Translations under genes and position numbers: made by a program
DNA from: an uncultured Acidimicrobiaceae bacterium
Lineage (GTDB): Bacteria > Actinomycetota > Acidimicrobiia > Actinomarinales > Actinomarinaceae
Assembly: GCA_964016255.1 (NCBI GenBank)
Contig: CAXHFF010000001.1
Span: 1-54,036 of the forward strand
DNA length: 54,036 nucleotides
Direction: 5' to 3'
Part shown: positions 1-15,454 of the stretch, piece by piece
Layout of the letters: every line of letters begins with the position of its first letter
How positions within the stretch are numbered: position 1 is the stretch's first letter
The notes under the pieces: model-generated
Told to the model about the DNA's origin: nothing
Databases searched by the model: none
What the model saw: the letters and a program-made list of their open reading frames with translations, nothing else

Positions 1-11
1 CACGTGTGTTC

Positions 12-44
12 TCGTCGGCAGCGTCAGATGTGTATAAGAGACAG
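12..44. other. Illumina Nextera/Tn5 Read-1 adapter (library artefact, not genomic)
   Basis: Exact 33-nt string TCGTCGGCAGCGTCAGATGTGTATAAGAGACAG read at 12-44. The last 19 nt are the Tn5 mosaic end. Confidence 0.97.
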
Positions 45-78: not shown

Positions 79-1191
79 ATGAATAAGAAATCAATTTCCC
101 TTCTTGTTGCTTGCTTAATGGTCTTTACTGCATGTGCAGGTGGAGATGCCGGAGAAGCAGGCCCTCAAGGAGAACAAGGTGAAAAGGGTGAGGCTGGCGA
201 GATAAGCCAAGCTGCTTTGGATGCTGCAGTAGAAGCTGCTTTAGCTGAAGAAGAAGCTGCAGTCGAAGGATCTCTAGTCATTTATAGTGGTAGAAAAGAA
301 AGCTTAGTCGCCGACGTTATAGCTGCTTTCGCAGCTGAAACTGGAGTGGCAGTTGAAGTTCGTTATGACAAGAGTGCTGCGTTAGCAGGTACTTTAGCTC
401 TTGAGGGCGCAATTAGCCCAGCTGACGTTTTCTTATCACAAGATCCAGTAAGTCTTGGTGTAGTAGCCAAGGAAGGACTTTTTGATGTCTTACCTGCTGA
501 CGTTTTAGACAACGTTCCAGCATGGGCAGTAGACCAAAGAGGATACTGGGTTGGAACTTCTGGAAGATCACGTTCACTTGTTGTTGACACCAGAGATACA
601 ACTGATGCAGAAATGCCTTCAGATATTTATGGTTTAAATGATGAAAAATTTAGAGGAAGACTTGGTCTTGCACCTGGTAACTCATCTTTCATAGCTATGG
701 TTGCTTGCATGATTGAGTCAGATGGTGAAGAAAAAGTCGCCGAATGGTTAACAGCCATCAATGGTCTTGGATATACAGAATATCCAAAGAACTCCCCTCA
801 AGTTGCTGCGGCAGATGCAGGCGAGTTAGACATTGGAATGATTAATCACTACTACACATTAAGAGTATTAGCTGAAAATGGCGATAGCCCAGTTAAAAAC
901 GTATATCTCGATGGTGGTTGTGGTGCAATGGTCATGCCAGCTGGAGCAGGAGTTTTATCTTCTAGCCAAAATAAACCAGCAGCTATGGCATTTATTGAGT
1001 ATCTACACTCAACTAGTGCACAAGAGCATTTCACAAATACTGTATTCGAGTTCCCACTCGTTCCAGGTATTACACCAAATGCCCTATTACCAGACATCGA
1101 TAGTTTGAACTCCCCTGAGGATTTGAACTGGTCTGCATTAGCTTTATGGCAAGAAAAAGCAGTAGAACTTATAGCGCAGGCAGGTTTCTAA
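79..1191 (+). CDS. ABC transporter substrate-binding lipoprotein, FbpA/AfuA/FutA (ferric-iron type) family
   Basis: 370 aa. Signal peptide with lipobox-like FTAC (Cys19). SLVIYSGRKES...ISPADVFLSQD and NHYY (paired Tyr typical of Fe3+-binding FbpA-type binding proteins). Followed by the cognate permease and ATPase. Confidence 0.85.
   Translation: MNKKSISLLVACLMVFTACAGGDAGEAGPQGEQGEKGEAGEISQAALDAAVEAALAEEEAAVEGSLVIYSGRKESLVADVIAAFAAETGVAVEVRYDKSAALAGTLALEGAISPADVFLSQDPVSLGVVAKEGLFDVLPADVLDNVPAWAVDQRGYWVGTSGRSRSLVVDTRDTTDAEMPSDIYGLNDEKFRGRLGLAPGNSSFIAMVACMIESDGEEKVAEWLTAINGLGYTEYPKNSPQVAAADAGELDIGMINHYYTLRVLAENGDSPVKNVYLDGGCGAMVMPAGAGVLSSSQNKPAAMAFIEYLHSTSAQEHFTNTVFEFPLVPGITPNALLPDIDSLNSPEDLNWSALALWQEKAVELIAQAGF
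142..204 (+). repeat. Seven consecutive Gly-X-Y triplets (collagen-like tether) inside the binding-protein gene
   Basis: Translation GDA GEA GPQ GEQ GEK GEA GEI, with Gly at residues 22, 25, 28, 31, 34, 37 and 40, just after the lipobox Cys. Confidence 0.8.
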
Positions 1192-1223
1192 CAGTCATTA
1201 GATACTAATGCTATATACAAAAG

Positions 1224-1260
1224 AAAAAAATCTGGTCAAATCAACCTGGCCAGATTTTTT
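1224..1260 (+). terminator. Candidate intrinsic (bidirectional-type) terminator/attenuator between binding-protein and permease genes
   Basis: A7-TCTGG (1224-1235) pairs with CCAGA-T6 (1250-1260) around a 14-nt loop. A-tract upstream and T-tract downstream. Lies in the 105-nt gap after the binding-protein stop. Confidence 0.5.
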
Positions 1261-1296
1261 CTTTATATAACTCTTTAACATAGATATTCTTGTAGT

Positions 1297-2853
1297 GTGA
1301 AAACTCCAAAATCACTTATAATCACTAACTTCATTATTCTTATTACGTTCTTATTGCCAACATTTTATTTAATCTGGAGATTTCTAACTTTTAATAGATC
1401 TTATATAAGTTTTTTCAGATCTTGGAATGTTTTTGACTTACTTTTAAACACCATGCTTTTATTTATTTTTGTTGTTATATCCAGTCTGATAGTAGGCCTA
1501 TTGATATCAATTATTCTGGTACGTTTTAATATACCTGGTTCCAAAATCTTATTTACCCTGTCTGTGCTTCCATTAGTCATCCCTTCTTATATTGGAGCAT
1601 TAACATATGTTTCAGCTTTTTCTCCTAAAGGTTTATTTGTACAATTATTTTCCAGTTTTGGCATAAATGAAATAGTGGGGATTGAAGGTTTTTTTGGTAG
1701 CTGGATAGTTTTAACTTTATTTACATATCCTTACGTCGTATTGATTTGTAGTAGCGCACTTCGCAATCTTGATTCCACAGTAGAAGATGCAGCACGATCA
1801 TTAGGTAAAAACAGATTTAACGTATACACACAAGTTGTAATTCCAAGATTAAAAAAACCAATTATTTTCTCTGGTCTTCTAGTTGGCTTGTATGTGATAT
1901 CAGATTTTGGTGCAGTTTCACTGATGAGATACTCAACTCTCACAAAAGCTATATATAGTTATTATGAATTCAACATAAATGGCGATCCAGTTATTTTTTA
2001 CTCAAGTATCTTGATAGTTTTAGCATTGCTTATTAGTTTTATTCAAAGAGGTTCTGAGGAGTCGAGATCAGCAAAAGTCAGCGGAACTCCAAAAATATCT
2101 GAAAAAACTAATCTAACCCCAAGATCTAAAATATTAATTTATTCCTTTATGAGTTTAATTATTTTTTCGGGACTCGTTTTGCCAATATCAGTCTTGAGCT
2201 ATTGGCTCATTAGGGGACTTTCAGCTGGAAATAGTGTTAGAGCTGTATTTGGAGGAGTTGTTGGGTCCCTAAGTGTATCTCTATTGGCAGCACTTTTTTC
2301 GGTCGTTGTTTCGACACCCATTATTATTATGGTCTCACAATATCGTTCAAAATTTGGAAATATTGTAGAGAGAATCATGTTGGCACTTTATGGACTACCT
2401 CACATATCCGTCGGGGTAGCAATTTTATTTATAACAATTAAAATTTTCCCATCAATATATCAAAGCTTTACAGCTTTAATTATCTCCTACCTAATAGTTT
2501 TTTTACCTCAAGCAATTGGAGCGGGTCAAGCCTCCATGGAACAGGTAAAATCAAATTACTTAGATGCAAGTTCTGGGTTGGGCATGTCAAAGTTAAAAAG
2601 CTTTTATAGGATTACCCTTCCCTTAATATACAGAGGCTTATTTGCGGGTGGAGCACTTGTCTTCTTATCGACTATGAAAGAATTACCACAAACTCTGTTA
2701 CTCAGGCCTACAGGTTTAAATACTATGGCTATCGATATTTGGTCATATGCATCTGAAGGATTATTCACTCAAGCAGCATTTTCTTCCTTTATTTTGTTGG
2801 CAATAAGCGCAATTCCTACTTATATATTAAGTACAAGGAATTTAACAACATAA
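1297..2853 (+). CDS. ABC transporter permease, FbpB/FutB-type fused double-domain
   Basis: 518 aa, about 12 hydrophobic helices. Two EAA-loop regions (EDAARSLGKNRFNVYTQVVIPRL and LDASSGLGMSKLKSFYRITLPLI). GTG start. Stop overlaps the next gene's ATG (TAATG). Confidence 0.85.
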   Translation: MKTPKSLIITNFIILITFLLPTFYLIWRFLTFNRSYISFFRSWNVFDLLLNTMLLFIFVVISSLIVGLLISIILVRFNIPGSKILFTLSVLPLVIPSYIGALTYVSAFSPKGLFVQLFSSFGINEIVGIEGFFGSWIVLTLFTYPYVVLICSSALRNLDSTVEDAARSLGKNRFNVYTQVVIPRLKKPIIFSGLLVGLYVISDFGAVSLMRYSTLTKAIYSYYEFNINGDPVIFYSSILIVLALLISFIQRGSEESRSAKVSGTPKISEKTNLTPRSKILIYSFMSLIIFSGLVLPISVLSYWLIRGLSAGNSVRAVFGGVVGSLSVSLLAALFSVVVSTPIIIMVSQYRSKFGNIVERIMLALYGLPHISVGVAILFITIKIFPSIYQSFTALIISYLIVFLPQAIGAGQASMEQVKSNYLDASSGLGMSKLKSFYRITLPLIYRGLFAGGALVFLSTMKELPQTLLLRPTGLNTMAIDIWSYASEGLFTQAAFSSFILLAISAIPTYILSTRNLTT

Positions 2854-3878
2854 TGGTATTTAACAGTCTTATTTTAAGAGCTAGAAGCCTATCTAAGTCA
2901 TATGGGGCTGAATCTGTTCTAAAAAATTTTAATATTGATATATGGGAAGGTTCAATTTTCGGAATACTAGGTACCTCCGGATCAGGAAAAACTACGGCTT
3001 TAAGAATGCTTGCAGGTTTTGAATTACCAGATTCGGGAAGTATTGAAATGTATGACAAAGTAATTTTTGATCAGGAGACAAACATACCACCTGAAAATAG
3101 AAATATAGGAATGGTTTTTCAAGATTACGCATTATTCCCGCACTTAAACGTTGAAAAAAATATAGCTTTTGGACTCAGCAAAGAAGAGCAAAATAGTGGG
3201 CGATTGCAAGAAGTAATAGATATGTGTAATTTGACTCAGTATAAAAATAAATTTCCTCAAAAACTTTCAGGAGGTCAGCAACAAAGAGTGGCTTTAGCTA
3301 GGGCACTTGCACCAAAACCAGAAATGATTCTTCTTGATGAACCTTTTACAAGTTTAGATGCCCAAATGGCCAGAGTCCTTAGAGATGAGGTTGTATCTCT
3401 TTTAAGAGAGACTCAAACTACTGCAATAATCGTTACACATGATCAAGAAGAAGCATTATCAGTTTGTGATATTGTCAGTGTTTTGGAAAGTGGTAATGTT
3501 ATACAAAGTGCAACCCCTCAGGAGATTTACTTAAACCCAATCAGTCAATCTGTAGCAAATTCTGTTGGGGATCCAAATATTCTCAAGGGATTTTCAGTAG
3601 ATGGAAGAGTTGAAACATCCCTTGGAAGTTTTACTTCAGCATATGAAGGTGCATTAGATGTATCGATCCGTCCAGAATGTATTGAAATCAATCTAGATTC
3701 CATGGGGCCTTATACCGTTAAGGAGTGTACTTTTTATGGTCACGATCAAGTTATATCTTTTGAGAATAACAAAGGTGAGATATTCAGATCCAGATCTCTC
3801 CCGTCTGTTATTTATGAACCGGGTGACAAGATTTGCATTGAAATTTCGGAAGTAACTACTTTTCCTTCAAATAAGTAG
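2853..3878 (+). CDS. ABC transporter ATP-binding protein (FbpC/PotA-like)
   Basis: Walker A GTSGSGKTT, Q-loop VFQDYALFPH, signature LSGGQQQRVALARAL, Walker B ILLDEPFTSLD, H-loop VTHDQEEA. C-terminal regulatory-type domain. Confidence 0.92.
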   Translation: MVFNSLILRARSLSKSYGAESVLKNFNIDIWEGSIFGILGTSGSGKTTALRMLAGFELPDSGSIEMYDKVIFDQETNIPPENRNIGMVFQDYALFPHLNVEKNIAFGLSKEEQNSGRLQEVIDMCNLTQYKNKFPQKLSGGQQQRVALARALAPKPEMILLDEPFTSLDAQMARVLRDEVVSLLRETQTTAIIVTHDQEEALSVCDIVSVLESGNVIQSATPQEIYLNPISQSVANSVGDPNILKGFSVDGRVETSLGSFTSAYEGALDVSIRPECIEINLDSMGPYTVKECTFYGHDQVISFENNKGEIFRSRSLPSVIYEPGDKICIEISEVTTFPSNK

Positions 3879-4061
3879 TTTAATCTTTGACACTTTTCCT
3901 GCGATGGCTTGAAGTGCTATTTCAGTTTCAGAAAGATAATTTGTAGCTCTTTTAAAGTTATTCTCTGCAATAAGTTCTCTTGAATTTGCTAGTGACTTTA
4001 CTAAACTGTTCAATTCATGAATCAAGTTATCTATTTCTTTATTAATTTCATTAATATCCAT
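3867..4061 (-). CDS. Hypothetical 64-aa all-helical protein (uncertain)
   Basis: The only stop-free frame in the 229-nt gap between the ATPase gene and the heliorhodopsin gene, which is a large gap for this genome. No TM segment and no clear Shine-Dalgarno. Overlaps the ATPase 3' end by 12 nt. Confidence 0.3.
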   Translation of the reverse strand: MDINEINKEIDNLIHELNSLVKSLANSRELIAENNFKRATNYLSETEIALQAIAGKVSKIKLLI

Positions 4062-4107
4062 ATCTGTAATAATAAGGTTAATACTATTTAAAAAAAGGTA
4101 AGAAATA

Positions 4108-4911
4108 ATGGAAGCAAAAATTCAGAAACTTAAGAAATTTAATTTAAGGATGGGATTAGTTCATCTTATTCAAGGAGCAGGTTTATTTTATTTGGGAACC
4201 GTAGTCAACACAGGTTTTACAGTACCTTTAACAATTACTCAACTTATAGGAGTTGGAACTCCTGAGGATCCATCTAGCTTCGCTTTAGTTCCAGAACTAC
4301 AAATCTGGAGAGAGGTATCAAACTTTGGACCTGCAGTTGCAACATTTTTGCTAGCTTCAGCAGTCGCACACTTTCTCATATCAGGACCTTTTTATAACAG
4401 ATATAAAGAAGATTTAATGAAAGGTATTAATAAAGTTCGCTGGATAGAGTATTCCATAAGTGCATCAGTAATGATTGTATTAATTGCTTTACTTGTCGGG
4501 ATCTATGATATCTGGGCATTAGCAGGTATATTTGTAATGAATGCTGCCATGTGTTGGTTTGGTTGGATGATGGAAGTACACAATCAATATACGGACAAAG
4601 TTGATTGGACCGCTTATATTATGGGATGTTTAGCTGGAATCGCACCTTGGATATTTATCTTCATTAACCTAATAGGTGATGGTGTTGCTACGGATGCAAA
4701 CCCACAAGGCGTTCCTCAGTTTGTGGTATGGATATTTGTTAGTATCTTTTTCTTTTTTAATACTTTCTCAATCAATATGATTTTGCAATATAAAGGTGTA
4801 GGTAAATGGAAAGATTATCTCTATGGAGAGAGAGCTTATATATGGCTAAGTTTATTAGCTAAGACTTGTCTTGCATGGCAAGTATTTGCGGGAACTTATC
4901 AGCCAAACTAA
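4108..4911 (+). CDS. heR: Heliorhodopsin (7-TM retinal-binding protein, inverted topology family)
   Basis: 267 aa with 7 hydrophobic helices. RWIEYSISASVMIVLIA (Glu114), GERAYIWLSLLAKTCLAWQVFAGT (Lys252, AAG 4861-4863), His19 and His88 match my recollection of heliorhodopsin 48C12 (E107, K241, H23, H80). No type-1 RYxDW or DxxxK motifs. Confidence 0.9.
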   Translation: MEAKIQKLKKFNLRMGLVHLIQGAGLFYLGTVVNTGFTVPLTITQLIGVGTPEDPSSFALVPELQIWREVSNFGPAVATFLLASAVAHFLISGPFYNRYKEDLMKGINKVRWIEYSISASVMIVLIALLVGIYDIWALAGIFVMNAAMCWFGWMMEVHNQYTDKVDWTAYIMGCLAGIAPWIFIFINLIGDGVATDANPQGVPQFVVWIFVSIFFFFNTFSINMILQYKGVGKWKDYLYGERAYIWLSLLAKTCLAWQVFAGTYQPN

Positions 4912-4989
4912 TTTGGGGTTACTTAATCCTCTTTCCAAAAAAGATTACTAATAAGATTATTAATAAGAGGCCAATATAAGAAAAAGCCA

Positions 4990-5781
4990 CTATTCTTTTT
5001 TTCTGATTTTCTTAAACAATATAAATAAAAGATAAACTGGGATTAATAACACGCTAAGAGAAACTGTGACTCCAACAATTCCTTCAATCCAATTTAAGCT
5101 TCTTTGAAAATAATAGTTCCAAGAGAATAGCGATATTCCAGATCCTTCTCTGATATTTAAAGTTAGTGTTGAATATGAAGTTGCATTTTCGTAATATTCT
5201 TTTTGTCCTTTAAGCCTTTCAATATCCTGATTTACATATCGCAGTTGATTCTGCACCTCTAATCGCTCAGATGTTGTTTTAGCCTCTAATTTAATCTCCT
5301 CAAGAGCTGTTTTCTCATTAAGTAACGAAAGTAACCGCGAGTCAATGTCTAGTACATAAGTTGTTACATCATTGGAATTGATACTAATATCTGAAAACTT
5401 TTTTATATTTTCTACTTCAGCTAAGAATTCATCAAAATCTTCAGCAGGAATATTTGACGTGATACTAAAATTTTTAAGACCTTGATAGTTACTAGAAAGA
5501 TAGGTATCTGAAATATTCCCATTATATTTTTCAACAAGTTTTTTAAACTGATCAACTTTTTTATCAAAGTTTGAAGTACTGACATCTACACTCCCATATG
5601 CAGATTTTATAACATAATCCCCCTGGGAAATAGAAGTACTTTCTATAGAGTCAGACCCCATTTTAAATGATCCAGGTTCTGTCATTCCAAAAGAAACGCT
5701 ATCTTCAGTAATGTTTGTTGAAAATAATCCACTACAGGCAGTTATAAGTGAGGCAAATAAAAATAATCTTATAAATTTCAT
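4990..5781 (-). CDS. Lipoprotein with central coiled coil and C-terminal TM anchor (DUF4349-like architecture)
   Basis: 263 aa. N-terminal signal with lipobox LITAC. Coiled-coil region (LEEIKLEAKTTSERLEVQNQLRYVNQDIERLKGQ). C-terminal helix VGVTVSLSVLLIPVYLLFILF followed by KKIRKKE. Family assignment is from memory of the architecture only. Confidence 0.6.
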   Translation of the reverse strand: MKFIRLFLFASLITACSGLFSTNITEDSVSFGMTEPGSFKMGSDSIESTSISQGDYVIKSAYGSVDVSTSNFDKKVDQFKKLVEKYNGNISDTYLSSNYQGLKNFSITSNIPAEDFDEFLAEVENIKKFSDISINSNDVTTYVLDIDSRLLSLLNEKTALEEIKLEAKTTSERLEVQNQLRYVNQDIERLKGQKEYYENATSYSTLTLNIREGSGISLFSWNYYFQRSLNWIEGIVGVTVSLSVLLIPVYLLFILFKKIRKKE

Positions 5782-5797
5782 TTGATAAGTATATCTA

Positions 5798-6892
5798 TTA
5801 GTAATTCATAATTTCGATAACGGGCACATACATTTCCTCCGGAGTTGTACCCCCGTGGTAGCCAACCAAGCTTCCTCTCAAATGCTTTGGAAAAATTATA
5901 TATCCATCTTCTAATAAAAAGCAATGGTCGGGATAAAGCCTTTTACTTAAATCTGTTTCTGGATTACCTAACAATTTTCTAATCTCTTCAGAAGTAAGAA
6001 ATCGTCCTGGCACATCTTTAAATATTTTCTTAACCTTATGAAAATCTCCATTGATATATACACTTCTTTGATCTCCAAAAATCTTAATATCATCTGTGTA
6101 ATCTAAATAAACTCTATTTTTCTCTGAAATATTTGTAAGGCCATGGTCAGCGGTGATGACAGTATACATTTTTCTTGAGTGTGAATTGTTTAAATTTTTT
6201 ATAAATTTTTCAAAGATATCAATTTCTTTATGCCACTCCTCGCTACCAACACCAAATACATGAGCTGAAATATCAATGTTTGGATAATAAATAAAGTTAA
6301 AACGATTATCTAAAACAGAAGAATCACTAATTATTTCATTTAATTCATCAGTATCTTTGTATCCAACTTGATGAGAGTCTTTATAAATGTATTCAGACAA
6401 TGCACTCTTTATAAGGTCTTTAGGTTGAATGTTATTAGATGTAATGCCTTTAGATTTAAGAATTGTCCATATCGTTTTATTATCTTTGATATCGATGTCT
6501 TTCAATATTGATTTATTGTCTTGATTCCAGTTCAGGGCATTAATCAGACCATGCTCATTTCTATCAAAAAGGTAGTAACCAAGAATGGCTGTATCTACAG
6601 GTTTAGAAACGTAATTAATAGTGCTTAAAGCGACATTTGTAGAACTCGGAAAGGTTGAGTTCACGGAAAATGAATTTGTATTATTTAAAAAATCAGACCT
6701 CGAAATTTTTAAATTTTCAGTACCTAGACCATCAGCTAAAACAAAGTTTATTGTCTCTGCCTTTAATATTTCAGAATTAAGTTTTACTTCGTATTCTTCA
6801 GAAAATATATCCTCATTTAGTACGATATTAAAAATTTTTTTAGATAAGTCTAGTAAGTTGCTTTTTCCAAAAATATTGTTTAAATGATCCAT
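5798..6892 (-). CDS. Alkaline-phosphatase superfamily protein (type I phosphodiesterase / nucleotide pyrophosphatase-like)
   Basis: 364 aa. Metal-ligand motifs NFVLADGLGTENL, VITADHGLTN and GYHGGTTPEEMYVP are typical of the superfamily. 16 nt upstream of the DUF4349-like gene on the same strand. Confidence 0.7.
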   Translation of the reverse strand: MDHLNNIFGKSNLLDLSKKIFNIVLNEDIFSEEYEVKLNSEILKAETINFVLADGLGTENLKISRSDFLNNTNSFSVNSTFPSSTNVALSTINYVSKPVDTAILGYYLFDRNEHGLINALNWNQDNKSILKDIDIKDNKTIWTILKSKGITSNNIQPKDLIKSALSEYIYKDSHQVGYKDTDELNEIISDSSVLDNRFNFIYYPNIDISAHVFGVGSEEWHKEIDIFEKFIKNLNNSHSRKMYTVITADHGLTNISEKNRVYLDYTDDIKIFGDQRSVYINGDFHKVKKIFKDVPGRFLTSEEIRKLLGNPETDLSKRLYPDHCFLLEDGYIIFPKHLRGSLVGYHGGTTPEEMYVPVIEIMNY

Positions 6893-6968
6893 AAAAAAAG
6901 TTTACAAACAATTACGCTCAACTTTCAAATAAAACTAAAATTTCCTAAGGGTTGGTTAAAATCAAATT

Positions 6969-7334
6969 ATGAATTCTTATTTTCAGGAGTACGCAACAGT
7001 AGCAGTATTGCTAGCAGTGGGCATTATATTTATGCTTATTTTGACATCGATTGCAGCCATTCTCAGACCTAATAATCCCTCTCCTGAAAAGCTAACAACC
7101 TATGAGTCAGGTGTTGACCCAGTGGGAACTGGTTGGAGCCAGACATACATCCGGTACTATATTTTTGGCTTACTATTTGTAATTTTTGACGTTGAAGCAG
7201 TATTCATATTCCCATGGGCAATTAATCTTGAGAAGTTAGGTTATTTCGGTTTAATTGAAATGTTGGTATTTATTTTTATTTTGTTGATTGGTTTAATTTA
7301 CGCAATTAGAAAGGACGTCTTGAAATGGGAGTAG
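6969..7334 (+). CDS. nuoA: NADH-quinone oxidoreductase subunit A
   Basis: 121 aa, 3 [11 protein letters not shown]...[24 protein letters not shown] matches the NuoA/ND3 signature. First gene of the nuo cluster. Confidence 0.92.
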
Positions 7335-7822
7335 TTGATAAATTTGGATTACCAAAACCTATATCATCAGTTTTAAACTGGGCAAGGTCATACTCACTGT
7401 GGTATTTTCAATTCGGCCTGGCCTGTTGCGCTATAGAAGTTATGGCTGTAAGTGGACCTAGGCATGATTTTATGAGACTAGGAATTATTCCATTGCCAGC
7501 TTCACCAAGGCAAGCTGATCTTATGGTTGTAGCAGGAACAGTTACCGACAAAATGGCACCGGCAGTAAAAAGACTTTATGATCAAATGCCAGAACCAAAA
7601 TATGTAATTTCTATGGGTTCATGTTCGAATAGTGGTGGCCCATATTGGGATTCTTATTCCGTTACCAAAGGTGTAGATCAACTTATACCCGTCGACGTGT
7701 ATGTACCTGGATGTCCACCAAGACCCGAAGCTTTACAAGAAGGAATAATTCTCCTGCAAGAAAAAATTAGAGGAGAAGATATGAAAGAAAAATGGAAAGC
7801 AGATCAAAATGAACCTGTCTAA
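7325..7822 (+). CDS. nuoB: NADH-quinone oxidoreductase subunit B
   Basis: 165 aa. N2 cluster ligands in [18 protein letters not shown] and VPGCPPRPE. Confidence 0.95.
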
Positions 7823-8360
7823 CAATGCAGAGTTTATAGAATCCCTCTCCTCAAAATTTCCAAATTTAGAAAACAATTTTGACACACTAAAAATAAAAGT
7901 CAAGACATCTGATTGGACAAGTACAGCCTCGCAGCTTAAAGATGAATTCAATCTCACATACTTTTCTTGGCTTAGTGCTATTGACTGGGAAAATGAAGTT
8001 TCCGTAGGGGACCCTCCAAAAGAACCTATATCACCTTGTTTTGAAGTAATATTTTGTTTATCGGATTCAATTGATGGAAATGTTGTTCTCGTCTCTACAG
8101 ATATTGAGAAAGACAATGCAACTATTCCTTCCTTGGTCGAGGTCTTTGCAGGTTCTAATTGGCATGAACGTGAGGCATATGAAATGTTTGGTATTGAATT
8201 CAGTGATCATCCAAATCTTGAAAAAATGTATCTTCCAGACGATTATGAAGGAAATCCCATGCTTAAATCATTTGAATTAATTAGTAGAGAGGTAAAACCC
8301 TGGCCTGGGGAAGTTGATGTGGAGGGAATGCCAGAAGACGGATCAGAGGGAGGTAGTTAA
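7809..8360 (+). CDS. nuoC: NADH-quinone oxidoreductase subunit C
   Basis: 183 aa. [22 protein letters not shown] is the 30-kDa subunit signature. Position between nuoB and nuoD. Confidence 0.9.
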
Positions 8361-8361
8361 G

Positions 8362-9558
8362 ATGGATGATATTTTAAACGCTGGTAATATCCCTTATGTC
8401 TCAGAGGCATCAGTTTCAGTTGAAATAGAAACTGAAGATATGACTTTAAACATAGGCCCGCAGCACCCCTCAACACATGGTGTTTTAAGGTTAGTAGCAA
8501 AAGTAGATGGAGAAAAAATTTCAAGTGTTGAGCCGGTATTGGGTTATATGCATAGAGGGTATGAAAAACTTGCAGAGGTTAGGACGTACCCACAAATAAC
8601 AACACTGGTAAATAGAATTGACTGGGTTTCAGGTTTTGCCAATGAGATACCTTTTATTGCTGCAACAGAAAAATTAATGGAAATAGAAGCACCAGAAAGA
8701 GCAAAGCACATTAGATTAATCCTCACTGAAATGGCAAGAATAGCATCCCATTTTGTATTCAACGGTGCTTATGCACTTGAAATAGGTGCATTGACTCCAA
8801 TATTTCTTGCAATGGAAGATAGGGAGAGAATTCTCGACCTAATTGAATCAGTGACAGGTGGTAGATTTCATCCAAACTTTAATAGGATTGGTGGCATAAA
8901 ACCAGCTGCAGGTGCAGGGCCAACAACTAAGAAAAATATACAAGATTTACCAGCTGGATTTTATCAAGAAACTAGAGACGCAATGGAGAAAGTTCTTGAA
9001 GCTGTTGAAAGAATGGAAGATTTAGTTGGAGGTAATGAGGTCTTTAAAGTCAGAACTAAGGGAGTGGGAATTATATCTAAAGAACTTGCTGAAGAGTACG
9101 GAGTTTCTGGTCCAATACTAAGAGCCTCAGGTGTAAAGTTTGACTTAAGAACACAGACTGATTTCTTACCTTATGACAAATTTGACTATGAAATTCCTGT
9201 AGGAGAAAATGGCGATTGTTATGATCGTTGGTATGTTCGATTAATGGAGATGAAAGAGTCGGCAAAAATCATACTCCAGGCAATTGACTCTATGCCAAGT
9301 GGACCTCTACAAACAAAAGTTCCTAAGGTCATAAAAGTTCCAAAGGGTCAGTCTTATGTAAGAACTGAAAATCCAAAAGGTGAAATGGGATTCTATGTTA
9401 TTTCTGAAGGTGGACTTGGACCTTATAGGCTTAAAATTAGGACACCGTCCTTTAGTAACATATCAATCCTTCCTGTATTACTTGAAGATCAGTTGTTACC
9501 CGATTTAATTGCCATTATGGGAAGTTTAGATTTTGTTTTAGGAGATGTTGATAGATGA
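8362..9558 (+). CDS. nuoD: NADH-quinone oxidoreductase subunit D
   Basis: NIGPQHPSTHGVLRL and C-terminal SLDFVLGDVDR signatures. Start moved from the ORF-track 8314 to ATG 8362: GGAGG at 8349-8353, and nuoC stops at 8360. Confidence 0.93.
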   Translation: MDDILNAGNIPYVSEASVSVEIETEDMTLNIGPQHPSTHGVLRLVAKVDGEKISSVEPVLGYMHRGYEKLAEVRTYPQITTLVNRIDWVSGFANEIPFIAATEKLMEIEAPERAKHIRLILTEMARIASHFVFNGAYALEIGALTPIFLAMEDRERILDLIESVTGGRFHPNFNRIGGIKPAAGAGPTTKKNIQDLPAGFYQETRDAMEKVLEAVERMEDLVGGNEVFKVRTKGVGIISKELAEEYGVSGPILRASGVKFDLRTQTDFLPYDKFDYEIPVGENGDCYDRWYVRLMEMKESAKIILQAIDSMPSGPLQTKVPKVIKVPKGQSYVRTENPKGEMGFYVISEGGLGPYRLKIRTPSFSNISILPVLLEDQLLPDLIAIMGSLDFVLGDVDR

Positions 9559-10535
9559 TTGATGTATCTCAAGTAATGGTAACAGCAGGTATTGTCCTAG
9601 CTTTTGCTTTAAATGGGGCAGTCATATTTACAATTCTTGATGTTAAAGGCGCTTCATGGATGCAAAGACGACCTGGACCTCTTCATGTTGGCCTAAGAGG
9701 ATTTATTTTTCCATTAGCTGAAATAATTAAATTTTTTCAGAAAGAAGACATAACACCTACAAATGTTGATTCAGCAGTATTTAAGTGGGCACCGGCATAT
9801 GTCCTTGCTTCTGTTTTCGGCTTATTTGTTGTTGTGCCAATCAGTCCAACTTTGGTTGGTAGTGATTTAGACTTAGGAGTTTTTTACTTATTGGCTATAA
9901 GTTCCTTATCAACACTAGGCGTTCTTACTGCCGGATGGTCATCTGCAAACAAATACTCATTAATGGGTGGGATACGTGCTGCAGGACAGTTAATTGCCTA
10001 TGAACTTCCATTAATTCTTGCAGTTGTTGGCGTTGTAATCCAAGCTGAAACAATGTCTCTTGTGGGAATAGTGGAAAAACAGATAGAGTTTGGACTTCCA
10101 TTTGTACTTTCTGGACAGGGTTTAGCTTTCTTAATATTTATGATTGCTGCGACAGCTGAAATGATGAGAGTTCCATTTGATATGCCAATAGGTGAATCTG
10201 AACTTGTTAGTGGATTTTTAACAGAGTATTCCGGAGTAAGATTCCTAATTTTTTATATAGCCGAATACATGAACATGTTTATTCTATGTGCTGTAGCTTC
10301 TACATTGTTTTTAGGTGGATATCATGTGCCTCTCTTGCCGGTAGAGTGGGTTAATTTTTATGGACCAGTTGTATTAATAACTAAAACAGTTTTTCTTGGT
10401 TTTATTCTAGTTTTAGTCAGGTGGTCTTTCCCAAGATTTAGAGAAGATCAACTTCAAAATTTAGCATGGAAAGTATTAATTCCTCTTGCTCTCCTTAATA
10501 TATTGATAACATCCATAATGAAAGTTGTATTTTAA
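9555..10535 (+). CDS. nuoH: NADH-quinone oxidoreductase subunit H
   Basis: 326 aa, about 8 TM. TEYSGVRFLIFYIAEYMNM is the ND1/NuoH signature. The ATG overlaps the nuoD TGA (ATGA). Confidence 0.93.
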   Translation: MIDVSQVMVTAGIVLAFALNGAVIFTILDVKGASWMQRRPGPLHVGLRGFIFPLAEIIKFFQKEDITPTNVDSAVFKWAPAYVLASVFGLFVVVPISPTLVGSDLDLGVFYLLAISSLSTLGVLTAGWSSANKYSLMGGIRAAGQLIAYELPLILAVVGVVIQAETMSLVGIVEKQIEFGLPFVLSGQGLAFLIFMIAATAEMMRVPFDMPIGESELVSGFLTEYSGVRFLIFYIAEYMNMFILCAVASTLFLGGYHVPLLPVEWVNFYGPVVLITKTVFLGFILVLVRWSFPRFREDQLQNLAWKVLIPLALLNILITSIMKVVF

Positions 10536-11021
10536 ATGAAAAAATTTAGACCTAAATTACCTGGTTTTTTGACAGGAATGAAAATTCTTCTATTTAATAT
10601 GATCAAGACGCTTTCCCCCCTAAGTCCAAATCCAAATGTTAACTATCCATTTGAAAAAGAAATTGTCGCCCCAAGAGCAAGGGGAGTTATTGCCCTTGAT
10701 CAGGACGCCTGTACTAGTTGTATGCTTTGTGCAAGACAGTGCCCAGACTGGTGTATTTACATAGAAGGCCATAAAGAATTACAACCTCCTACAAAACCTG
10801 GAGGTAGACAACGAAGTAGAGCGGTTCTCGATAGGTTTGATATAGACTACGCTTTATGCATGTATTGTGGGATTTGCGTTGAAGTTTGTCCTTTTGATGC
10901 ATTGTTTTGGACACCGGAATATGAATATTCAGAATACAATATGGGAGACATGCTTCATGATAAAACAAGACTTGATCAATGGTTAAATACAGTACCTGAA
11001 GTCGAAGGTTTAGAGAGTTAA
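10536..11021 (+). CDS. nuoI: NADH-quinone oxidoreductase subunit I (2x[4Fe-4S])
   Basis: 161 aa. Two ferredoxin motifs, CTSCMLCARQCP and CMYCGICVEVCP. Confidence 0.93.
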   Translation: MKKFRPKLPGFLTGMKILLFNMIKTLSPLSPNPNVNYPFEKEIVAPRARGVIALDQDACTSCMLCARQCPDWCIYIEGHKELQPPTKPGGRQRSRAVLDRFDIDYALCMYCGICVEVCPFDALFWTPEYEYSEYNMGDMLHDKTRLDQWLNTVPEVEGLES

Positions 11022-11022
11022 A

Positions 11023-11541
11023 ATGGAAGCACTTGACATCATCAGTTATTTTTTACTATTGGGTCTCTTACTGGTTGCTGTCAAAGTTGTAACAACCTCT
11101 AATGTAATTCATGCCGCAATTTCACTAGTTTTTACTCTAGCCATAACAGCAGGTACATTTTTATTACTATCTGCTGAATTTGTTGCACTCGTGATTGTCC
11201 TTGTATACATAGGTGCTGTAATTGTTCTTTTTCTATTTGGAATAATGATTACAAGAGCACCATTAGGACAAAATGCTGAGTTGGACAATGAAAAAAATAA
11301 AACCATGGCATTCATAGTATCCTTGTCAATTTTTGGAATTTTCTCTTACGTCATGTTGAACACCTTTGATGCTCAAATAACGGTAACATCTGGAACTTCA
11401 ACTGAATTATTAGGAGAAATTTTGTTGAGTAGATTTGTGTTTCCTTTTGAAGTTGTTTCTTTCGTTCTGTTAGCGGCTCTAATTGGAGGTATCACTCTAG
11501 CAAGACAAGATAATGCCCTCATGGATGAGAACCAAATATGA
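11023..11541 (+). CDS. nuoJ: NADH-quinone oxidoreductase subunit J
   Basis: 172 aa hydrophobic protein in the conserved I-J-K position. LVYIGAVIVLFLFGIMI is typical of ND6/NuoJ. Confidence 0.85.
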   Translation: MEALDIISYFLLLGLLLVAVKVVTTSNVIHAAISLVFTLAITAGTFLLLSAEFVALVIVLVYIGAVIVLFLFGIMITRAPLGQNAELDNEKNKTMAFIVSLSIFGIFSYVMLNTFDAQITVTSGTSTELLGEILLSRFVFPFEVVSFVLLAALIGGITLARQDNALMDENQI

Positions 11542-11843
11542 GTGTTCAACCTTTCTTAATTGCTGCAGCTGGTTTGTTCTCTATTGGGATATATGGAATT
11601 TTAGTTAGAAGAAATGTTGTAATGGTTCTTTTATCTATTGAGTTAATCTTAAATGCAGTAAATATCAACTTTGTTGTTTTTGATGCCATGCTTGGAGATG
11701 CTTTATTACAGGGTCAAATTTTTACCATTTTCATAATCACTATTGCTGCAGCTGAAGTAGGTATTGGCTTAGCTATTGTTCTGATGTTGTTCAGGAACAG
11801 AAAAACTGCAAACATAAATGAATTTGATTTATTGAAATGGTAA
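11538..11843 (+). CDS. nuoK: NADH-quinone oxidoreductase subunit K
   Basis: 101 aa, 3 TM. LSIELILNAVNINFV and AAAEVGIGLAIVL are typical of ND4L/NuoK. Confidence 0.9.
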   Translation: MSVQPFLIAAAGLFSIGIYGILVRRNVVMVLLSIELILNAVNINFVVFDAMLGDALLQGQIFTIFIITIAAAEVGIGLAIVLMLFRNRKTANINEFDLLKW

Positions 11844-13855
11844 GCAGTAATTTAACCTTTTTTTTAGCTGAAGGAAAGCCCACATATACAGATGGTGGTG
11901 TCGCTGCTGAATATACTTGGATAATTGTTGTACTACCATTTTTAGCGGCTCTTTTAATTACTTTTTTAGGAAAATATCTTCCACTTCAAGGAGCTGAAAT
12001 TGCTCTTGGCACTATCGGTTTTATTTTTGCTTTTAGTTCCTACCTTCTTTATCTAAATGTTACTGAAGGAGTAGCCTCTGAATTTTTTATTAATGTTGGA
12101 AGCATCGGCTCATTCGATCTTGAATTCGGATGGGTTGTAGACGGTCTTTCAATAATGATGTATTTTGTGGTCGGCACTGTAGCTACTTTAGTCTTTATAT
12201 ACGCAACAAATTATATGAAAGGGGAGGTTAGATATACTTTTTTCTTTACATCCCTTACTTTATTTGCTGGGAGTATGTTGGTACTCGTTTCCTCACCAAC
12301 GTTATTACAACTCTTAATTGGGTGGGAGCTCGTAGGTGTTTGTTCTTATTTATTAATTGGGCACTACTGGGAAAAGAAAGAGAATTCATCTGCAGCAATG
12401 AAAGCATTTATAACTAATAAAATTGCAGATGTCGGCTTAATGATCGGAATAATCGTACTAGCTCTTTCTACGGGTACATTGAGAATAAGTGAAATTCTTT
12501 ATCAATCTACTCATGATTACGAATCCCTTAAGTCAGTCGCATATCTAGCTGGAGTTCTTTTATTTATTGGGGCAATGGGAAAAAGTGCACAGTTTCCTCT
12601 CCATGTTTGGTTACCTGACGCAATGGCAGGTCCAACACCAGTATCTGCATTAATGCATGCTGCAACAATGGTTACAGCGGGTGTGTATTTACTTGCAAGA
12701 ATGTTTCCTTTTTATGAAGGTATGGCAAGTCAAGCGTTAGACGTAGTTTTACTTTTTGGTGTTATAACTCTCTTTACTGCGGGATTAATAGCTATAGTCC
12801 AAGATGATTTAAAAAAAGTACTTGCATATTCAACCGTTAGTCAGCTTGGATACATGGTTGCAGCTATAGGTTCCGGAGCATACACTGCTGCATTATTTCA
12901 CCTCTGGACACATGCATTTTTTAAAGCATTACTTTTTCTAGGTGCCGGCTCAGTTATTCATGCTGTACACACCAATAGCATGAGGGAAATGGGTGGCCTC
13001 AGAAAAGAAATGCCTAGAACATATATAACATTTATATTAGGAACAGTTGCTCTTGCCGGACTCCCACCTCTTGCCGGTTTTTTCTCAAAAGATGAAATAC
13101 TCGCATCTTTAAACCATGGAGGGTACAGCACTTATTTCGCTATAGCTGTTGCTGGGGCATTTATAACTGCTTTCTATATGACTAGAGCTGTAGTCCTAAC
13201 CTTCTTTGGGGAGTACAGGGGTAATGGACATCCACATGAGTCTGATTCTATGATGACCACTCCTCTTGTTGTACTTGCTGGTTTTGCTGTAGTTGCAGGT
13301 TGGGTAAATATTCCAGGAATATATACAGGTTTTACAGACTGGGTAACAACAAGGAAAAATCCTATAGTAGAGTATCACCCAGAGTCATTTGACTACTTTG
13401 CTTTGAGCAGCGGGTTGCTTGCAGGTTTAGCCGGTATTGGTTTGGCCTATTATGTGTACCAAATATTGGGTAGACCTGAAGATGGCGATCAAAAGATTAA
13501 AGTTGAGCCGATATGGAATATTTTAGAAAATAAATATTACCTAGATGACTTTTATTTCAAGTTCATTATAAATCCAACAAAATCAACACTTTCAAATATA
13601 GTCGACAGGTTCAATACAAACATTTTGGATAGGACAGTAAATATGTTTGGAGTAGCGGCTACATTTTTAGGAAAAATTGTGTACGAAAAATTTGACCAGG
13701 GTGGAATTGATAGAGCATTAAATGTATCCTCGTCTTCAACTGATGCATTGGGTGCTAGAGTAAAGCTTCTTCAAACTGGAAAAGCTCAACAGTATATTAT
13801 GTACTTTTTAAGCGGAGTAATAGTAATTAGCTTATTAATTTTGTTAGTGTTATAG
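11837..13855 (+). CDS. nuoL: NADH-quinone oxidoreductase subunit L (antiporter-like)
   Basis: 672 aa. WELVGVCSYLLIGHYW and GKSAQFPLHVWLPDAMAGPTPVSALMHAATMVTAGVYL. Confidence 0.93.
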   Translation: MVSSNLTFFLAEGKPTYTDGGVAAEYTWIIVVLPFLAALLITFLGKYLPLQGAEIALGTIGFIFAFSSYLLYLNVTEGVASEFFINVGSIGSFDLEFGWVVDGLSIMMYFVVGTVATLVFIYATNYMKGEVRYTFFFTSLTLFAGSMLVLVSSPTLLQLLIGWELVGVCSYLLIGHYWEKKENSSAAMKAFITNKIADVGLMIGIIVLALSTGTLRISEILYQSTHDYESLKSVAYLAGVLLFIGAMGKSAQFPLHVWLPDAMAGPTPVSALMHAATMVTAGVYLLARMFPFYEGMASQALDVVLLFGVITLFTAGLIAIVQDDLKKVLAYSTVSQLGYMVAAIGSGAYTAALFHLWTHAFFKALLFLGAGSVIHAVHTNSMREMGGLRKEMPRTYITFILGTVALAGLPPLAGFFSKDEILASLNHGGYSTYFAIAVAGAFITAFYMTRAVVLTFFGEYRGNGHPHESDSMMTTPLVVLAGFAVVAGWVNIPGIYTGFTDWVTTRKNPIVEYHPESFDYFALSSGLLAGLAGIGLAYYVYQILGRPEDGDQKIKVEPIWNILENKYYLDDFYFKFIINPTKSTLSNIVDRFNTNILDRTVNMFGVAATFLGKIVYEKFDQGGIDRALNVSSSSTDALGARVKLLQTGKAQQYIMYFLSGVIVISLLILLVL

Positions 13856-13863
13856 GAGGAAAA

Positions 13864-15453: not shown

Positions 15454-15454
15454 T

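What the first reader, a model, noticed from the sequence alone, without database searches (positions are those of the whole stretch)
4108..4911. Heliorhodopsin gene: an inverted-topology retinal protein whose cellular role is still unresolved
The 267-aa product has seven hydrophobic segments. By eye it aligns along its whole length with my recollection of the founding heliorhodopsin 48C12:
- FNLRMGLVHLIQ: His19 corresponds to H23.
- SAVAHFLISG: His88 corresponds to H80.
- RWIEYSISASVMIVLIA: Glu114 (codon GAG 4447-4449) corresponds to the counterion E107.
- CLAGIAPWI.
- QYKGVGKWKDYLYGERAYIWLSLLAKTCLAWQVFAGT: Lys252 (codon AAG 4861-4863) corresponds to the Schiff-base K241.

It lacks type-1 rhodopsin hallmarks: no RYxDW in helix 3 and no DxxxK in helix 7.

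Established knowledge: the family was recognised only in 2018 by functional metagenomics. It has its N-terminus inside, a slow photocycle and no ion pumping, and it is restricted to monoderms. Reported partners (glutamine synthetase, photolyase) do not give a consensus function.

Here the gene looks monocistronic, with non-coding flanks of 229 nt and 78 nt and a convergent downstream neighbour. No carotenoid or retinal genes (crtE/B/I/Y, blh) occur in the 54 kb.
Basis: partly seen in the sequence, partly recalled or inferred. Interest (0 to 1): 0.9.

Follow-up and report, generated by a model that had tools for sequence, protein, structure and literature searches.

The report
Known Actinomarina heliorhodopsin gene, function unresolved
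The gene is a genuine heliorhodopsin (an upside-down, retinal-binding light sensor) from the abundant marine bacterium Candidatus Actinomarina. This same gene and its neighbourhood have already been described in two papers, so the call is correct but not a discovery.

Summary
The ORF at 4108..4911 (+), 267 aa, is a heliorhodopsin (HeR).
- Profile matches: Pfam PF18761 E=3e-88, NCBIfam HeR equivalog 314 bits against a cutoff of 100.
- Solved structures by sequence: TaHeR E=5e-67, 48C12 E=2e-57.
- AF2 model: pLDDT 90.5, TM-score 0.86/0.92 to TaHeR, about 0.5 to type-1 rhodopsins.
The SxxxK motif is present and 16 of 17 key 48C12 residues are identical.
- Lys+Arg is 13 on the N-terminal side and 1 on the other, so the N-terminus is cytoplasmic.
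- dN/dS is about 0.016.

The host is Ca. Actinomarinales, a monoderm; HeR is 97-99% identical in four published MAGs. No retinal, carotenoid or type-1 rhodopsin genes occur in the 54 kb.

Lopez-Perez 2020 and Bulzu 2021 (cluster C11) already described this HeR and its setting: ferric ABC importer, HeR, 11-subunit nuo operon. They also noted that the order cannot make retinal.

One correction. The flanks are not non-coding. The 229-nt flank holds a conserved 64-aa antisense gene. The 78-nt flank holds a conserved, uncalled 23-codon transmembrane micro-ORF.

The most likely mechanism is a non-transporting light sensor that acts through a protein partner. The partner is unknown.

The parts
4108..4911 (+). 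Heliorhodopsin gene, 267 aa
   Evidence: Pfam PF18761 E=3.3e-88 over profile positions 1-241 of 242. NCBIfam NF038020 HeR equivalog, 313.9 bits against a cutoff of 100. PDB sequence hits: TaHeR 5e-67, 48C12 1.6e-57. AF2 pLDDT 90.5. Foldseek TM-score 0.86/0.92 to 6is6. dN/dS 0.016.
4447..4449 (+). GAG codon for Glu114, the predicted Schiff-base counterion (48C12 E107, TaHeR E108)
   Evidence: Alignments. The column is invariant in the 48-sequence alignment A1.
4861..4863 (+). AAG codon for Lys252, the predicted retinal Schiff-base lysine (48C12 K241), within S248-x-x-x-K252
   Evidence: Alignments. S248 and K252 are invariant in A1.
3867..4061 (-). small64: a conserved 64-aa gene divergent from HeR, with 46 nt between the start codons. 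It overlaps the 3' end of the ABC ATPase gene by 12 nt. Predicted soluble helical hairpin, restricted to the order, function unknown.
   Evidence: Intact in the Actinomarinales loci. 297 homologues, all about 64 aa. dN/dS 0.09-0.30. Called as a gene by JGI. AF2 helical hairpin, pLDDT 96.3. No Pfam, NCBIfam, PDB or Foldseek assignment.
4919..4990 (-). mini23: a conserved 23-codon micro-ORF encoding VAFSYIGLLLIILLVIFFGKRIK (one TM helix plus a basic tail). It is convergent with HeR, with 7 nt between the stops. Its GTG start overlaps the DUF4349 stop as TAGTG.
   Evidence: Exactly 23 codons in all 22 Actinomarinales loci, including those without DUF4349. Variable sites by codon position 16/22, 5/22, 22/22, and only this frame is open in all loci. 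Not called by the public gene caller.
79..3878 (+). Ferric-iron ABC importer: binding protein 79..1191, permease 1297..2853, ATPase 2853..3878. This is context and a candidate partner.
   Evidence: Pfam SBP_bac_6/11, BPD_transp_1, ABC_tran plus TOBE_2. The binding protein matches solved ferric-binding proteins: 7w3w E=2.8e-62, and also FbpA, HitA, SfuA. It precedes HeR in all 22 loci.
4990..6892 (-). Minus-strand pair DUF4349 (4990..5781) and a type I phosphodiesterase/PglZ-like protein (5798..6892). Together with mini23 they probably form one minus-strand operon convergent on HeR.
   Evidence: Pfam PF14257 E=1.9e-33 and PF01663 E=8e-12. DUF4349 was not detected at E<1e-5 in 11 of 22 loci; the phosphodiesterase is in all 22.
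6969..16936 (+). 11-subunit complex I operon nuoA,B,C,D,H,I,J,K,L,M,N, without nuoE, F, G. This is context and a candidate partner.
   Evidence: Pfam assignments. The nuoN frame is open from 15455. Same order as described in PMC7771536 and in Bulzu 2021.

Best explanation
This is the heliorhodopsin of a Candidatus Actinomarina genome.

Shown by computation:
- It is a 7-TM protein with the HeR fold and a cytoplasmic N-terminus.
- It has the long AB-loop beta-hairpin.
- The Schiff-base Lys252 sits in an SxxxK motif, and Glu114 is the only counterion.
- The His19/His88 polar cavity is present.
- The gene is under very strong purifying selection.

Inferred from family knowledge:
- It binds all-trans retinal. 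The cell must scavenge retinal, because the order has no retinal pathway.
- It absorbs green light and enters a seconds-long photocycle without moving ions.
- In the long-lived activated state, its positively charged cytoplasmic loops (K229, K233, K235, D236, R242; R98, K100) bind and tune a partner protein. This would work as shown for glutamine synthetase, photolyase and the ABC transporter OmrDE in other HeRs.

The partner in Actinomarina is not known. The neighbouring ferric ABC importer and the 11-subunit complex I are the positional candidates.

The gene has its own Shine-Dalgarno sequence and is bracketed by opposite-strand genes, so it is probably transcribed on its own.
For: Identity:
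- HMM, PDB-sequence and fold matches.
- 16 of 17 structurally key 48C12 residues are identical, and the SxxxK motif is present.
- 53 columns are invariant across 48 HeRs, including H19, S84, H88, E114, S248 and K252.

Topology: Lys+Arg is 13 on the N-terminal-side loops and 1 on the other side.

Functional constraint: dN/dS is 0.016 at dS 0.70, the same as nuoB/D/H. The gene is present at the same place in all 22 Actinomarinales loci.

Host: 97-99% identical HeR in Actinomarinales MAGs.

No retinal or carotenoid genes in the window, and none in the order (PMC7771536).

[quoted passage not shown] The conserved charged ICL3 pattern QYKxxGKWKDYLxGER is present.

Own translation start: an AAAGG or GGGGG motif lies 6-12 nt upstream in all loci.
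Against: - No experiment exists for any Actinomarina HeR. Retinal binding, colour, photocycle and absence of transport are extrapolated from 48C12 and TaHeR, which are only 44-49% identical.
- No partner can be named. None of the neighbours recurs next to HeR in the 58 loci outside the order, and synteny inside the order is high everywhere, so adjacency is weak evidence.
- No promoter-like or terminator-like site was found around the gene. A long read-through transcript, as Bulzu 2021 proposed, is therefore not excluded.
- The clade has its own retinal-pocket changes (I142 to C149, Q213 to M224, S242 to T253). Their effect is unknown.
Confidence: 0.6

Rival explanations
1. HeR is specifically a light-dependent modulator of the adjacent FbpABC-type ferric-iron importer. 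It would couple iron uptake to daylight, when Fe(III) photoreduction and oxidative risk change, by analogy with OcHeR stimulating the ABC transporter OmrDE.
For: The importer immediately precedes HeR on the same strand in all 22 Actinomarinales loci. The binding protein is a clear ferric-binding-protein homologue. An iron-dependent repressor lies next to the cluster in the closest relative (PMC7771536). HeR regulation of an ABC transporter has experimental precedent (PMC11109279).
Against: OmrDE is a fused heterodimeric exporter, whereas this is a binding-protein-dependent importer with separate subunits, so the interaction surface is not transferable. A conserved antisense gene separates the importer from HeR. 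The pairing is not seen in any of 58 HeR loci outside the order. No IdeR-type box lies upstream of HeR or anywhere in the window.
Confidence: 0.15
2. HeR is a light switch for the 11-subunit (nuoEFG-less, possibly F420- or ferredoxin-linked) complex I encoded downstream. It would be part of one long transcriptional unit, as Bulzu et al. proposed.
For: The nuoA-N operon follows HeR at a fixed distance in all 22 loci, and the accessory genes NDUFAF7, htpX, rhodanese and pfkB follow it in the window. The proposal is in the literature. HeR and the nuo core subunits show the same very low dN/dS.
Against: About 2 kb of opposite-strand genes (mini23, DUF4349, phosphodiesterase) lie between HeR and nuoA, so co-transcription would have to run antisense through them. 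The association is not seen outside the order. There is no biochemical precedent for HeR acting on complex I.
Confidence: 0.1
3. HeR is a two-chromophore light-harvesting or sensing protein. It would capture an exogenous xanthophyll at a lateral fenestration, as proposed in the Kornilov et al. 2025 preprint. Its outward-facing C-terminal half would let a monoderm cell that makes neither retinal nor carotenoids pick both up from seawater.
For: The fenestration motif defined in that preprint (48C12 F162, C166, G169, F206, N207, A210) maps to Y170, C174, G177, F217, N218, S221. That gives an opposing aromatic pair, small residues and the Gly. The order lacks carotenoid and retinal synthesis, and the window has none.
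Against: The preprint rests on docking and sequence motifs, and no carotenoid-bound HeR has been shown. By its own count 91% of HeRs carry the motif, so its presence here says little. An antenna explains light capture, not the output function.
Confidence: 0.1
4. HeR is an ion transporter or a light-driven enzyme. The options are proton transport, as in the viral V2HeR3, or the carbonate/nitrate-reducing activity speculated for the 48C12 subfamily.
For: Viral HeRs transport protons (cited in PMC11109279, and PMC12873467). Kovalev 2020 suggested an enzymatic role for the polar Schiff-base cavity, and all the cavity residues are conserved here.
Against: Bacterial HeRs tested so far show no ion transport. 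This protein groups with TaHeR and 48C12, not with viral subfamily 2, which has His at positions 162 and 166 and no fenestration motif. The enzyme idea has no experimental support.
Confidence: 0.05

Closest known systems
Heliorhodopsins of Ca. Actinomarinales: cluster C11 of Bulzu et al. 2021, and the HeR of Lopez-Perez et al. 2020
   Same: HeR is 97-99% identical to that of four published MAGs and 82-88% identical to that of the other 18 Actinomarina genomes. The gene order is identical: ferric ABC importer, HeR, 11-subunit nuo, NDUFAF7, htpX, rhodanese, pfkB kinase. The absence of retinal genes matches too.
   Different: Nothing of substance. The window comes from a different species-level genome, about 86% nucleotide identity to the nearest MAGs over 12.9 kb. 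Neither the passages of the two papers that I searched and read nor the JGI gene calls on L081 mention the 23-codon ORF abutting the 3' end of HeR. Those passages also do not mention the conserved 64-aa divergent gene.
TaHeR (Thermoplasmatales archaeon heliorhodopsin, PDB 6is6)
   Same: It is the best solved-structure match: E=5e-67 by sequence, TM-score 0.86/0.92, rmsd 2.4 A, 46% identity. It shares the counterion Glu, the SxxxK lysine, Tyr at the 48C12-162 position and Met at the 48C12-213 position.
   Different: The AB-loop beta-hairpin is longer here (residues 38-71), and the E-F loop carries an 8-residue insertion, DGVATDAN. The host is bacterial, not archaeal.
48C12, the founding heliorhodopsin (PDB 6su3, 6uh3)
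   Same: 49% identity over 247 aligned positions. 16 of 17 key polar or charged residues are identical, including H23, H80, E107, S237 and K241. TM-score 0.81/0.84.
   Different: Q213 to M224, I142 to C149 in the retinal pocket, S242 to T253, and the dimer-interface Y179 to N187. The AB loop is 7 residues longer.
OcHeR-OmrDE, the HeR that up-regulates an ABC transporter in light (Cho et al. 2024)
   Same: A HeR is encoded next to ABC-transporter genes, and the conserved positively charged ICL3 is present (K229, K233, K235, D236).
   Different: The transporter here is a binding-protein-dependent ferric importer, not a heterodimeric multidrug exporter. An antisense gene separates it from HeR. 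No interaction data exist.

Membership tests
Heliorhodopsin (Pfam PF18761 / NCBIfam NF038020) | Full-length match to the family profile above the curated threshold | tested here: met
   PF18761 gives 295.5 bits (cutoff 26.7) over profile positions 1-241 of 242. NF038020 equivalog gives 313.9 bits (cutoff 100).
Heliorhodopsin (Pfam PF18761 / NCBIfam NF038020) | Seven TM helices with inverted topology (N-terminus cytoplasmic) | tested here: met
   The AF2 model has 7 long helices. Lys+Arg is 13 on the N-terminal-side loops and 1 on the opposite side. This is prediction only, not an experimental topology.
Heliorhodopsin (Pfam PF18761 / NCBIfam NF038020) | Schiff-base lysine in TM7 within an SxxxK motif | tested here: met
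   S248-L-L-A-K252 aligns with 48C12 S237...K241. Both residues are invariant in 48 HeRs.
Heliorhodopsin (Pfam PF18761 / NCBIfam NF038020) | Single Glu counterion in TM3 (48C12 E107) and the His23/His80 polar Schiff-base cavity | tested here: met
   E114, H19 and H88 are present, along with N12, S84, Y99, N108, R111, W112, Y115, S118, E156, Q227, Y237 and E241. That is 16 of 17 key residues.
Heliorhodopsin (Pfam PF18761 / NCBIfam NF038020) | HeR fold, including the long AB-loop beta-hairpin, distinct from type-1 rhodopsins | tested here: met
   Foldseek TM-score is 0.86/0.92 to 6is6 and 0.81/0.84 to 6su3. The best type-1 rhodopsins score about 0.5 with rmsd above 6 A. Beta strands span 38-49 and 59-71.
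Heliorhodopsin (Pfam PF18761 / NCBIfam NF038020) | Binds all-trans retinal, slow (seconds) photocycle, no ion pumping | not testable with these tools
   This needs heterologous expression and spectroscopy. No Actinomarina HeR has been characterised in the papers found.
Heliorhodopsin (Pfam PF18761 / NCBIfam NF038020) | Monoderm host | tested here: met
   The locus is 97-99% identical in HeR and syntenic with Ca. Actinomarinales (Actinomycetota) genomes. HeRs were reported as restricted to monoderms by Bulzu 2021.
Type-1 microbial rhodopsin (Bac_rhodopsin, PF01036) | Profile match; RYxDW-type helix 3 and DxxxK helix 7; N-terminus outside | tested here: not met
   There is no PF01036 hit at E<=0.01. 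Helix 3 reads RWIEYS and helix 7 reads SLLAK. TM-score to type-1 structures is about 0.5. The charge bias puts the N-terminus inside.
HeR plus ABC-transporter regulatory pair (OcHeR-OmrDE type) | helR in the same operon as a heterodimeric multidrug ABC exporter | tested here: not met
   The neighbour is a ferric importer with a separate binding protein, permease and ATPase. A conserved antisense gene lies between it and HeR.
HeR plus ABC-transporter regulatory pair (OcHeR-OmrDE type) | Physical, light-modulated binding of HeR to the transporter | not testable with these tools
   This requires ITC or pull-down and transport assays.

The most novel reading that the evidence does not exclude
In Actinomarina the heliorhodopsin is the core of a small, order-specific light-sensing module. 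HeR would work with the two conserved opposite-strand micro-genes that abut it: the 64-aa cytoplasmic helical hairpin, and the previously uncalled 23-aa single-TM peptide. Together they would gate the neighbouring ferric-iron importer and/or the NADH-module-less complex I in daylight. That would link light sensing to iron and redox economy in one of the ocean's most abundant photoheterotrophs, using scavenged retinal.
Probability: 0.1. Interest if true: 0.65.

Novelty: already known. Interest (0 to 1): 0.22.

Why it matters
Heliorhodopsins are widespread and still lack an agreed physiological role. Actinomarina is among the most abundant marine photoheterotrophs, and it keeps this gene under purifying selection as strong as that on its respiratory core (dN/dS about 0.016), even with a genome of about 1.1 Mb. 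Whatever HeR does is therefore important to the cell.

This window does not make the question more tractable than the published genomes already do. The same gene, position and retinal auxotrophy have been in print since 2020-2021. The only new material is local anatomy: HeR is packed between two conserved opposite-strand small genes, one of which is missed by the public gene calls I checked. This bears on how the gene is transcribed and offers two cheap extra candidates for interaction tests.

Tried and rejected
- Neighbour association outside the order. tblastn of ten window proteins against 58 non-Actinomarinales HeR loci gave only generic ABC-ATPase hits at 24-33% identity. An HMM of small64 against all ORFs of those loci found nothing below E=0.3. 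The context is therefore lineage-specific and weak as functional evidence.
- Promoter and terminator scan of 3600..7100. Promoter-like sites were fewer than in shuffles, none lay in 4062..4107, and there were no terminator-like sites. This does not settle the transcription units.
- IdeR/DtxR operator search (TWAGGTWAGSCTWACCTWA, up to 3 mismatches) found 0 matches in the window. An 11/19 resemblance I saw by eye at 4062..4107 is not conserved in the alignment of 23 intergenic regions, so I dropped it.
- small64 function. No match that assigns a function came from Pfam, NCBIfam, a PDB profile search or Foldseek. The few hits are sub-threshold or generic coiled-coil and helical-hairpin matches.
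- Substrate doubt. The sub-threshold NCBIfam best hits for the binding protein and ATPase were 2-aminoethylphosphonate transporters. I rejected that reading in favour of ferric iron, because the binding protein matches many solved ferric-binding proteins at E down to 3e-62.
- Pseudogene or non-functional relic: rejected on dN/dS 0.016 and an intact ORF in all loci.
- Type-1 rhodopsin: rejected.
- The Lys252-Glu114 distance could not be measured, because model coordinates are not exposed to the script tool (directory listing).
Full report
**1. The observation**

The ORF at 4108..4911 (+) exists as described: ATG start, TAA stop, 267 aa, with every quoted peptide segment. The GAG codon at 4447-4449 is residue 114 and the AAG codon at 4861-4863 is residue 252. 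The distances to the neighbouring large ORFs are 229 nt upstream and 78 nt downstream. The downstream neighbour, DUF4349 at 4990..5781, is convergent.

**2. Identity**

- The protein matches Pfam Heliorhodopsin PF18761 end to end: E=3.3e-88, 295.5 bits against a cutoff of 26.7.
- It matches the NCBIfam HeR equivalog NF038020 at 313.9 bits against a cutoff of 100.
- Against solved structures by sequence, the best hits are TaHeR (6is6, E=5e-67) and 48C12 (6su3 and 9ljj, E about 1.5e-57).
- An AlphaFold2 model built on 48 homologues has mean pLDDT 90.5 and pTM 0.84. It shows seven long helices plus a beta-hairpin at 38-49 and 59-71.
- Foldseek places the model on TaHeR (TM-score 0.86/0.92, rmsd 2.4 A) and on 48C12 (0.81/0.84). 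Type-1 rhodopsins reach only about 0.5.

- S248...K252 forms the SxxxK motif.
- Of the 17 polar or charged residues that Kovalev et al. 2020 list as structurally key, 16 are identical. The exception, Q213 to M224, is a variant they describe as common.
- Lys+Arg counts are 13 on the N-terminal-side loops and 1 on the other side, so the N-terminus is predicted to be cytoplasmic.
- There is no type-1 signature and no Bac_rhodopsin hit.

**3. Host and distribution**

A scan of species-representative genomes found HeR at 97-99% identity in four Ca. Actinomarinales MAGs and at 82-88% in 18 further Actinomarina SAGs and MAGs. The next relatives are only about 53% identical: Methanomassiliicoccales, Patescibacteria, Thermoplasmata and Anaerolineae. 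The protein database search gave 6,724 HeR hits with the same gap, from 80-87% down to 57% or less. The window is about 86% identical in nucleotides to the nearest MAGs over 12.9 kb, so it is a different species of the same group. The rest of the window is ordinary bacterial core:
- a tRNA cluster and an ECF sigma factor;
- secE-nusG-rplKAJL-rpoBC;
- the str, S10, spc and alpha ribosomal operons;
- secY, adk and map.

**4. Surroundings**

Upstream on the same strand lies a complete binding-protein-dependent ABC importer. Its binding protein is a clear homologue of solved ferric-binding proteins: 7w3w at E=2.8e-62, and also FbpA, HitA, SfuA and FutA.

Downstream, after the minus-strand genes DUF4349 and a type I phosphodiesterase/PglZ-like protein, comes an 11-subunit nuo operon (A, B, C, D, H, I, J, K, L, M, N; no E, F, G). 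It is followed by NDUFAF7-like, HtpX, rhodanese and PfkB-kinase genes.

This order is kept in all 22 Actinomarinales loci. DUF4349 was not detected in 11 of them. None of these neighbours accompanies HeR in the 58 loci from other lineages. No ORF I scanned in the 54 kb is a carotenoid, retinal or type-1 rhodopsin gene.

**5. What is already published**

- Lopez-Perez et al. 2020 (PMC7771536) reported four points. All Actinomarinales carry one type-1 rhodopsin and one heliorhodopsin. [quoted passage not shown] Its key residues match 48C12. The order lacks retinal biosynthesis.
- Bulzu et al. 2021 singled out this clade as cluster C11 and listed exactly the gene string found here: afuABC, HeR, 11-subunit complex I, NDUFAF7, htpX, pspE, adenosine kinase. 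They proposed HeR as a light switch for these functions.
- A 2026 preprint on complete Actinomarina genomes again notes 'a heliorhodopsin of unknown function'.

The finding is therefore correct but already known.

**6.

(a) The region 3867..4061 (-) encodes a 64-aa protein.
- It is conserved in all 22 loci at 47-94% identity. An ORF scan recovered it intact in 20 of them; in L008 and L017 the longest ORF picked was in another frame.
- It is under purifying selection, dN/dS 0.09-0.30.
- It has 297 homologues of about 64 aa, all in marine or Actinomarina data, and JGI calls it as a gene.
- It is predicted with high confidence (pLDDT 96.3) to be a helical hairpin.
- It has no assignable family or structural relative.
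- It is divergent from HeR, with 46 nt between the start codons here and 32-59 nt in the 20 loci where the ORF scan recovered it.

(b) The region 4919..4990 (-) is a 23-codon ORF encoding VAFSYIGLLLIILLVIFFGKRIK, one TM helix with a basic tail.
- It has exactly 23 codons in all 22 loci, including those without DUF4349.
- Its stop lies 0-7 nt from the HeR stop.
- It is the only frame open in all loci.
- Variable sites by codon position are 16/22, 5/22 and 22/22, which is a coding signature.
- In the window its GTG start overlaps the DUF4349 stop as TAGTG.
- The JGI gene calls checked (L081) do not call it.

HeR is therefore tightly sandwiched between opposite-strand genes. It carries its own Shine-Dalgarno-like motif. 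No consensus promoter or terminator was detected.

**7. Selection**

Against the nearest MAG, HeR has dN/dS 0.016 at dS 0.70. That matches nuoB, nuoD and nuoH (0.006-0.018) and is much lower than the ferric-binding protein (0.13) or the minus-strand genes (0.06-0.09). The gene is clearly functional.

**8. Mechanism**

Shown by computation: the protein is a HeR-fold 7-TM protein with a cytoplasmic N-terminus. It has the retinal lysine, the counterion and the polar cavity, and it is strongly conserved.

Inferred from the family:
- It binds scavenged all-trans retinal.
- It has a slow photocycle without ion transport.
- It signals by protein-protein contact through its basic cytoplasmic loops. 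This would work as shown for HeRs acting on glutamine synthetase, photolyase and the ABC exporter OmrDE (PMC11109279). The conserved ICL3 charges are present: K229, K233, K235, D236.

I put about 0.97 on the identity and about 0.6 on the sensor/regulator mechanism as a whole.

The partner is unknown.
- The ferric importer is my leading positional candidate (about 0.15).
- The 11-subunit complex I is second (about 0.10).
- Both rest on synteny that is uninformative in a lineage where most of the genome is syntenic.
- A 2025 preprint proposes that HeRs bind exogenous xanthophylls at a lateral fenestration. The sequence motif is present here (Y170, C174, G177, F217, N218, S221). It would fit an organism that makes neither chromophore. 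However, the motif occurs in 91% of HeRs and the idea rests on docking.
- Transport or enzymatic roles are unlikely.

**9. Clade-specific features**

Relative to 41 other HeRs, the Actinomarina clade has fixed changes at I142 to C149 (beta-ionone side of the pocket), A210 to S221, S242 to T253, Y to V207, and L/R to Y264/Q265. N187 sits at the 48C12 dimer-interface Tyr179 position. The AB hairpin is longer and the E-F loop has an insertion. These are candidates for spectral tuning or partner specificity, but their significance is unknown.

**10. Verdict**

The statement about non-coding flanks is wrong. The novelty is low, because this gene and its context are already in the literature. Interest is about 0.2. 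The only new items are the flanking micro-genes.

Noticed in passing
window 1..44: The window starts with an untrimmed Illumina Nextera/Tn5 mosaic-end adapter (TCGTCGGCAGCGTCAGATGTGTATAAGAGACAG). Positions 26..44 match the 19-nt mosaic end exactly, with 0 matches expected by chance. The contig's left end is therefore a library artefact, and only about 34 nt of real sequence precede the ferric-binding-protein gene.
   Followed up: yes
window 4919..4990 (-): A conserved 23-codon ORF encodes a single-TM peptide (VAFSYIGLLLIILLVIFFGKRIK). It is convergent with HeR, with 7 nt between the stops. It is present in all 22 Actinomarinales loci and shows a coding substitution pattern. The JGI gene calls checked do not call it.
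   Followed up: yes
window 3867..4061 (-): A conserved, order-restricted 64-aa helical-hairpin protein is encoded divergently from HeR. It overlaps the last 12 nt of the ABC ATPase gene. No family or function can be assigned.
   Followed up: yes
window 15454..15832: The apparent 380-nt gap between nuoM and nuoN is an artefact of listing only ATG, GTG and TTG starts. The nuoN frame is open from 15455, two bases after the nuoM stop, and encodes a typical hydrophobic N-terminus. This implies a non-canonical start such as ATT.
   Followed up: partly
window 79..10535 compared with L001: Synonymous divergence from the nearest MAG is very uneven along 10 kb. dS is 0.11 for the ferric-binding protein, 0.5-0.7 for the permease, ATPase and HeR, 1.1-1.4 for nuoC, D and H, and 2-3 for DUF4349 and the phosphodiesterase. 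This looks like a recombination mosaic between species.
   Followed up: no
L001 3022..3699 (-); L081 1850..2092: A DtxR/IdeR-type iron-dependent repressor lies divergently upstream of the ferric importer in the closest relative. This is just beyond the left edge of the window. It is absent at that position in another Actinomarina lineage. No IdeR-like operator was found in the window.
   Followed up: partly
window 22422..23374 (+): An ECF-type sigma factor gene (22422..23006) is followed, with a 4-nt overlap, by a 123-aa ORF with no Pfam match. That ORF may be its anti-sigma factor. The pair sits between a tRNA cluster and secE/nusG.
   Followed up: no
window 79..3878: NCBIfam's best (sub-threshold) hits for the binding protein and ATPase are 2-aminoethylphosphonate transporters, whereas solved ferric-binding proteins match at E=3e-62. 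Annotation by best NCBIfam hit would mislabel this importer.
   Followed up: yes
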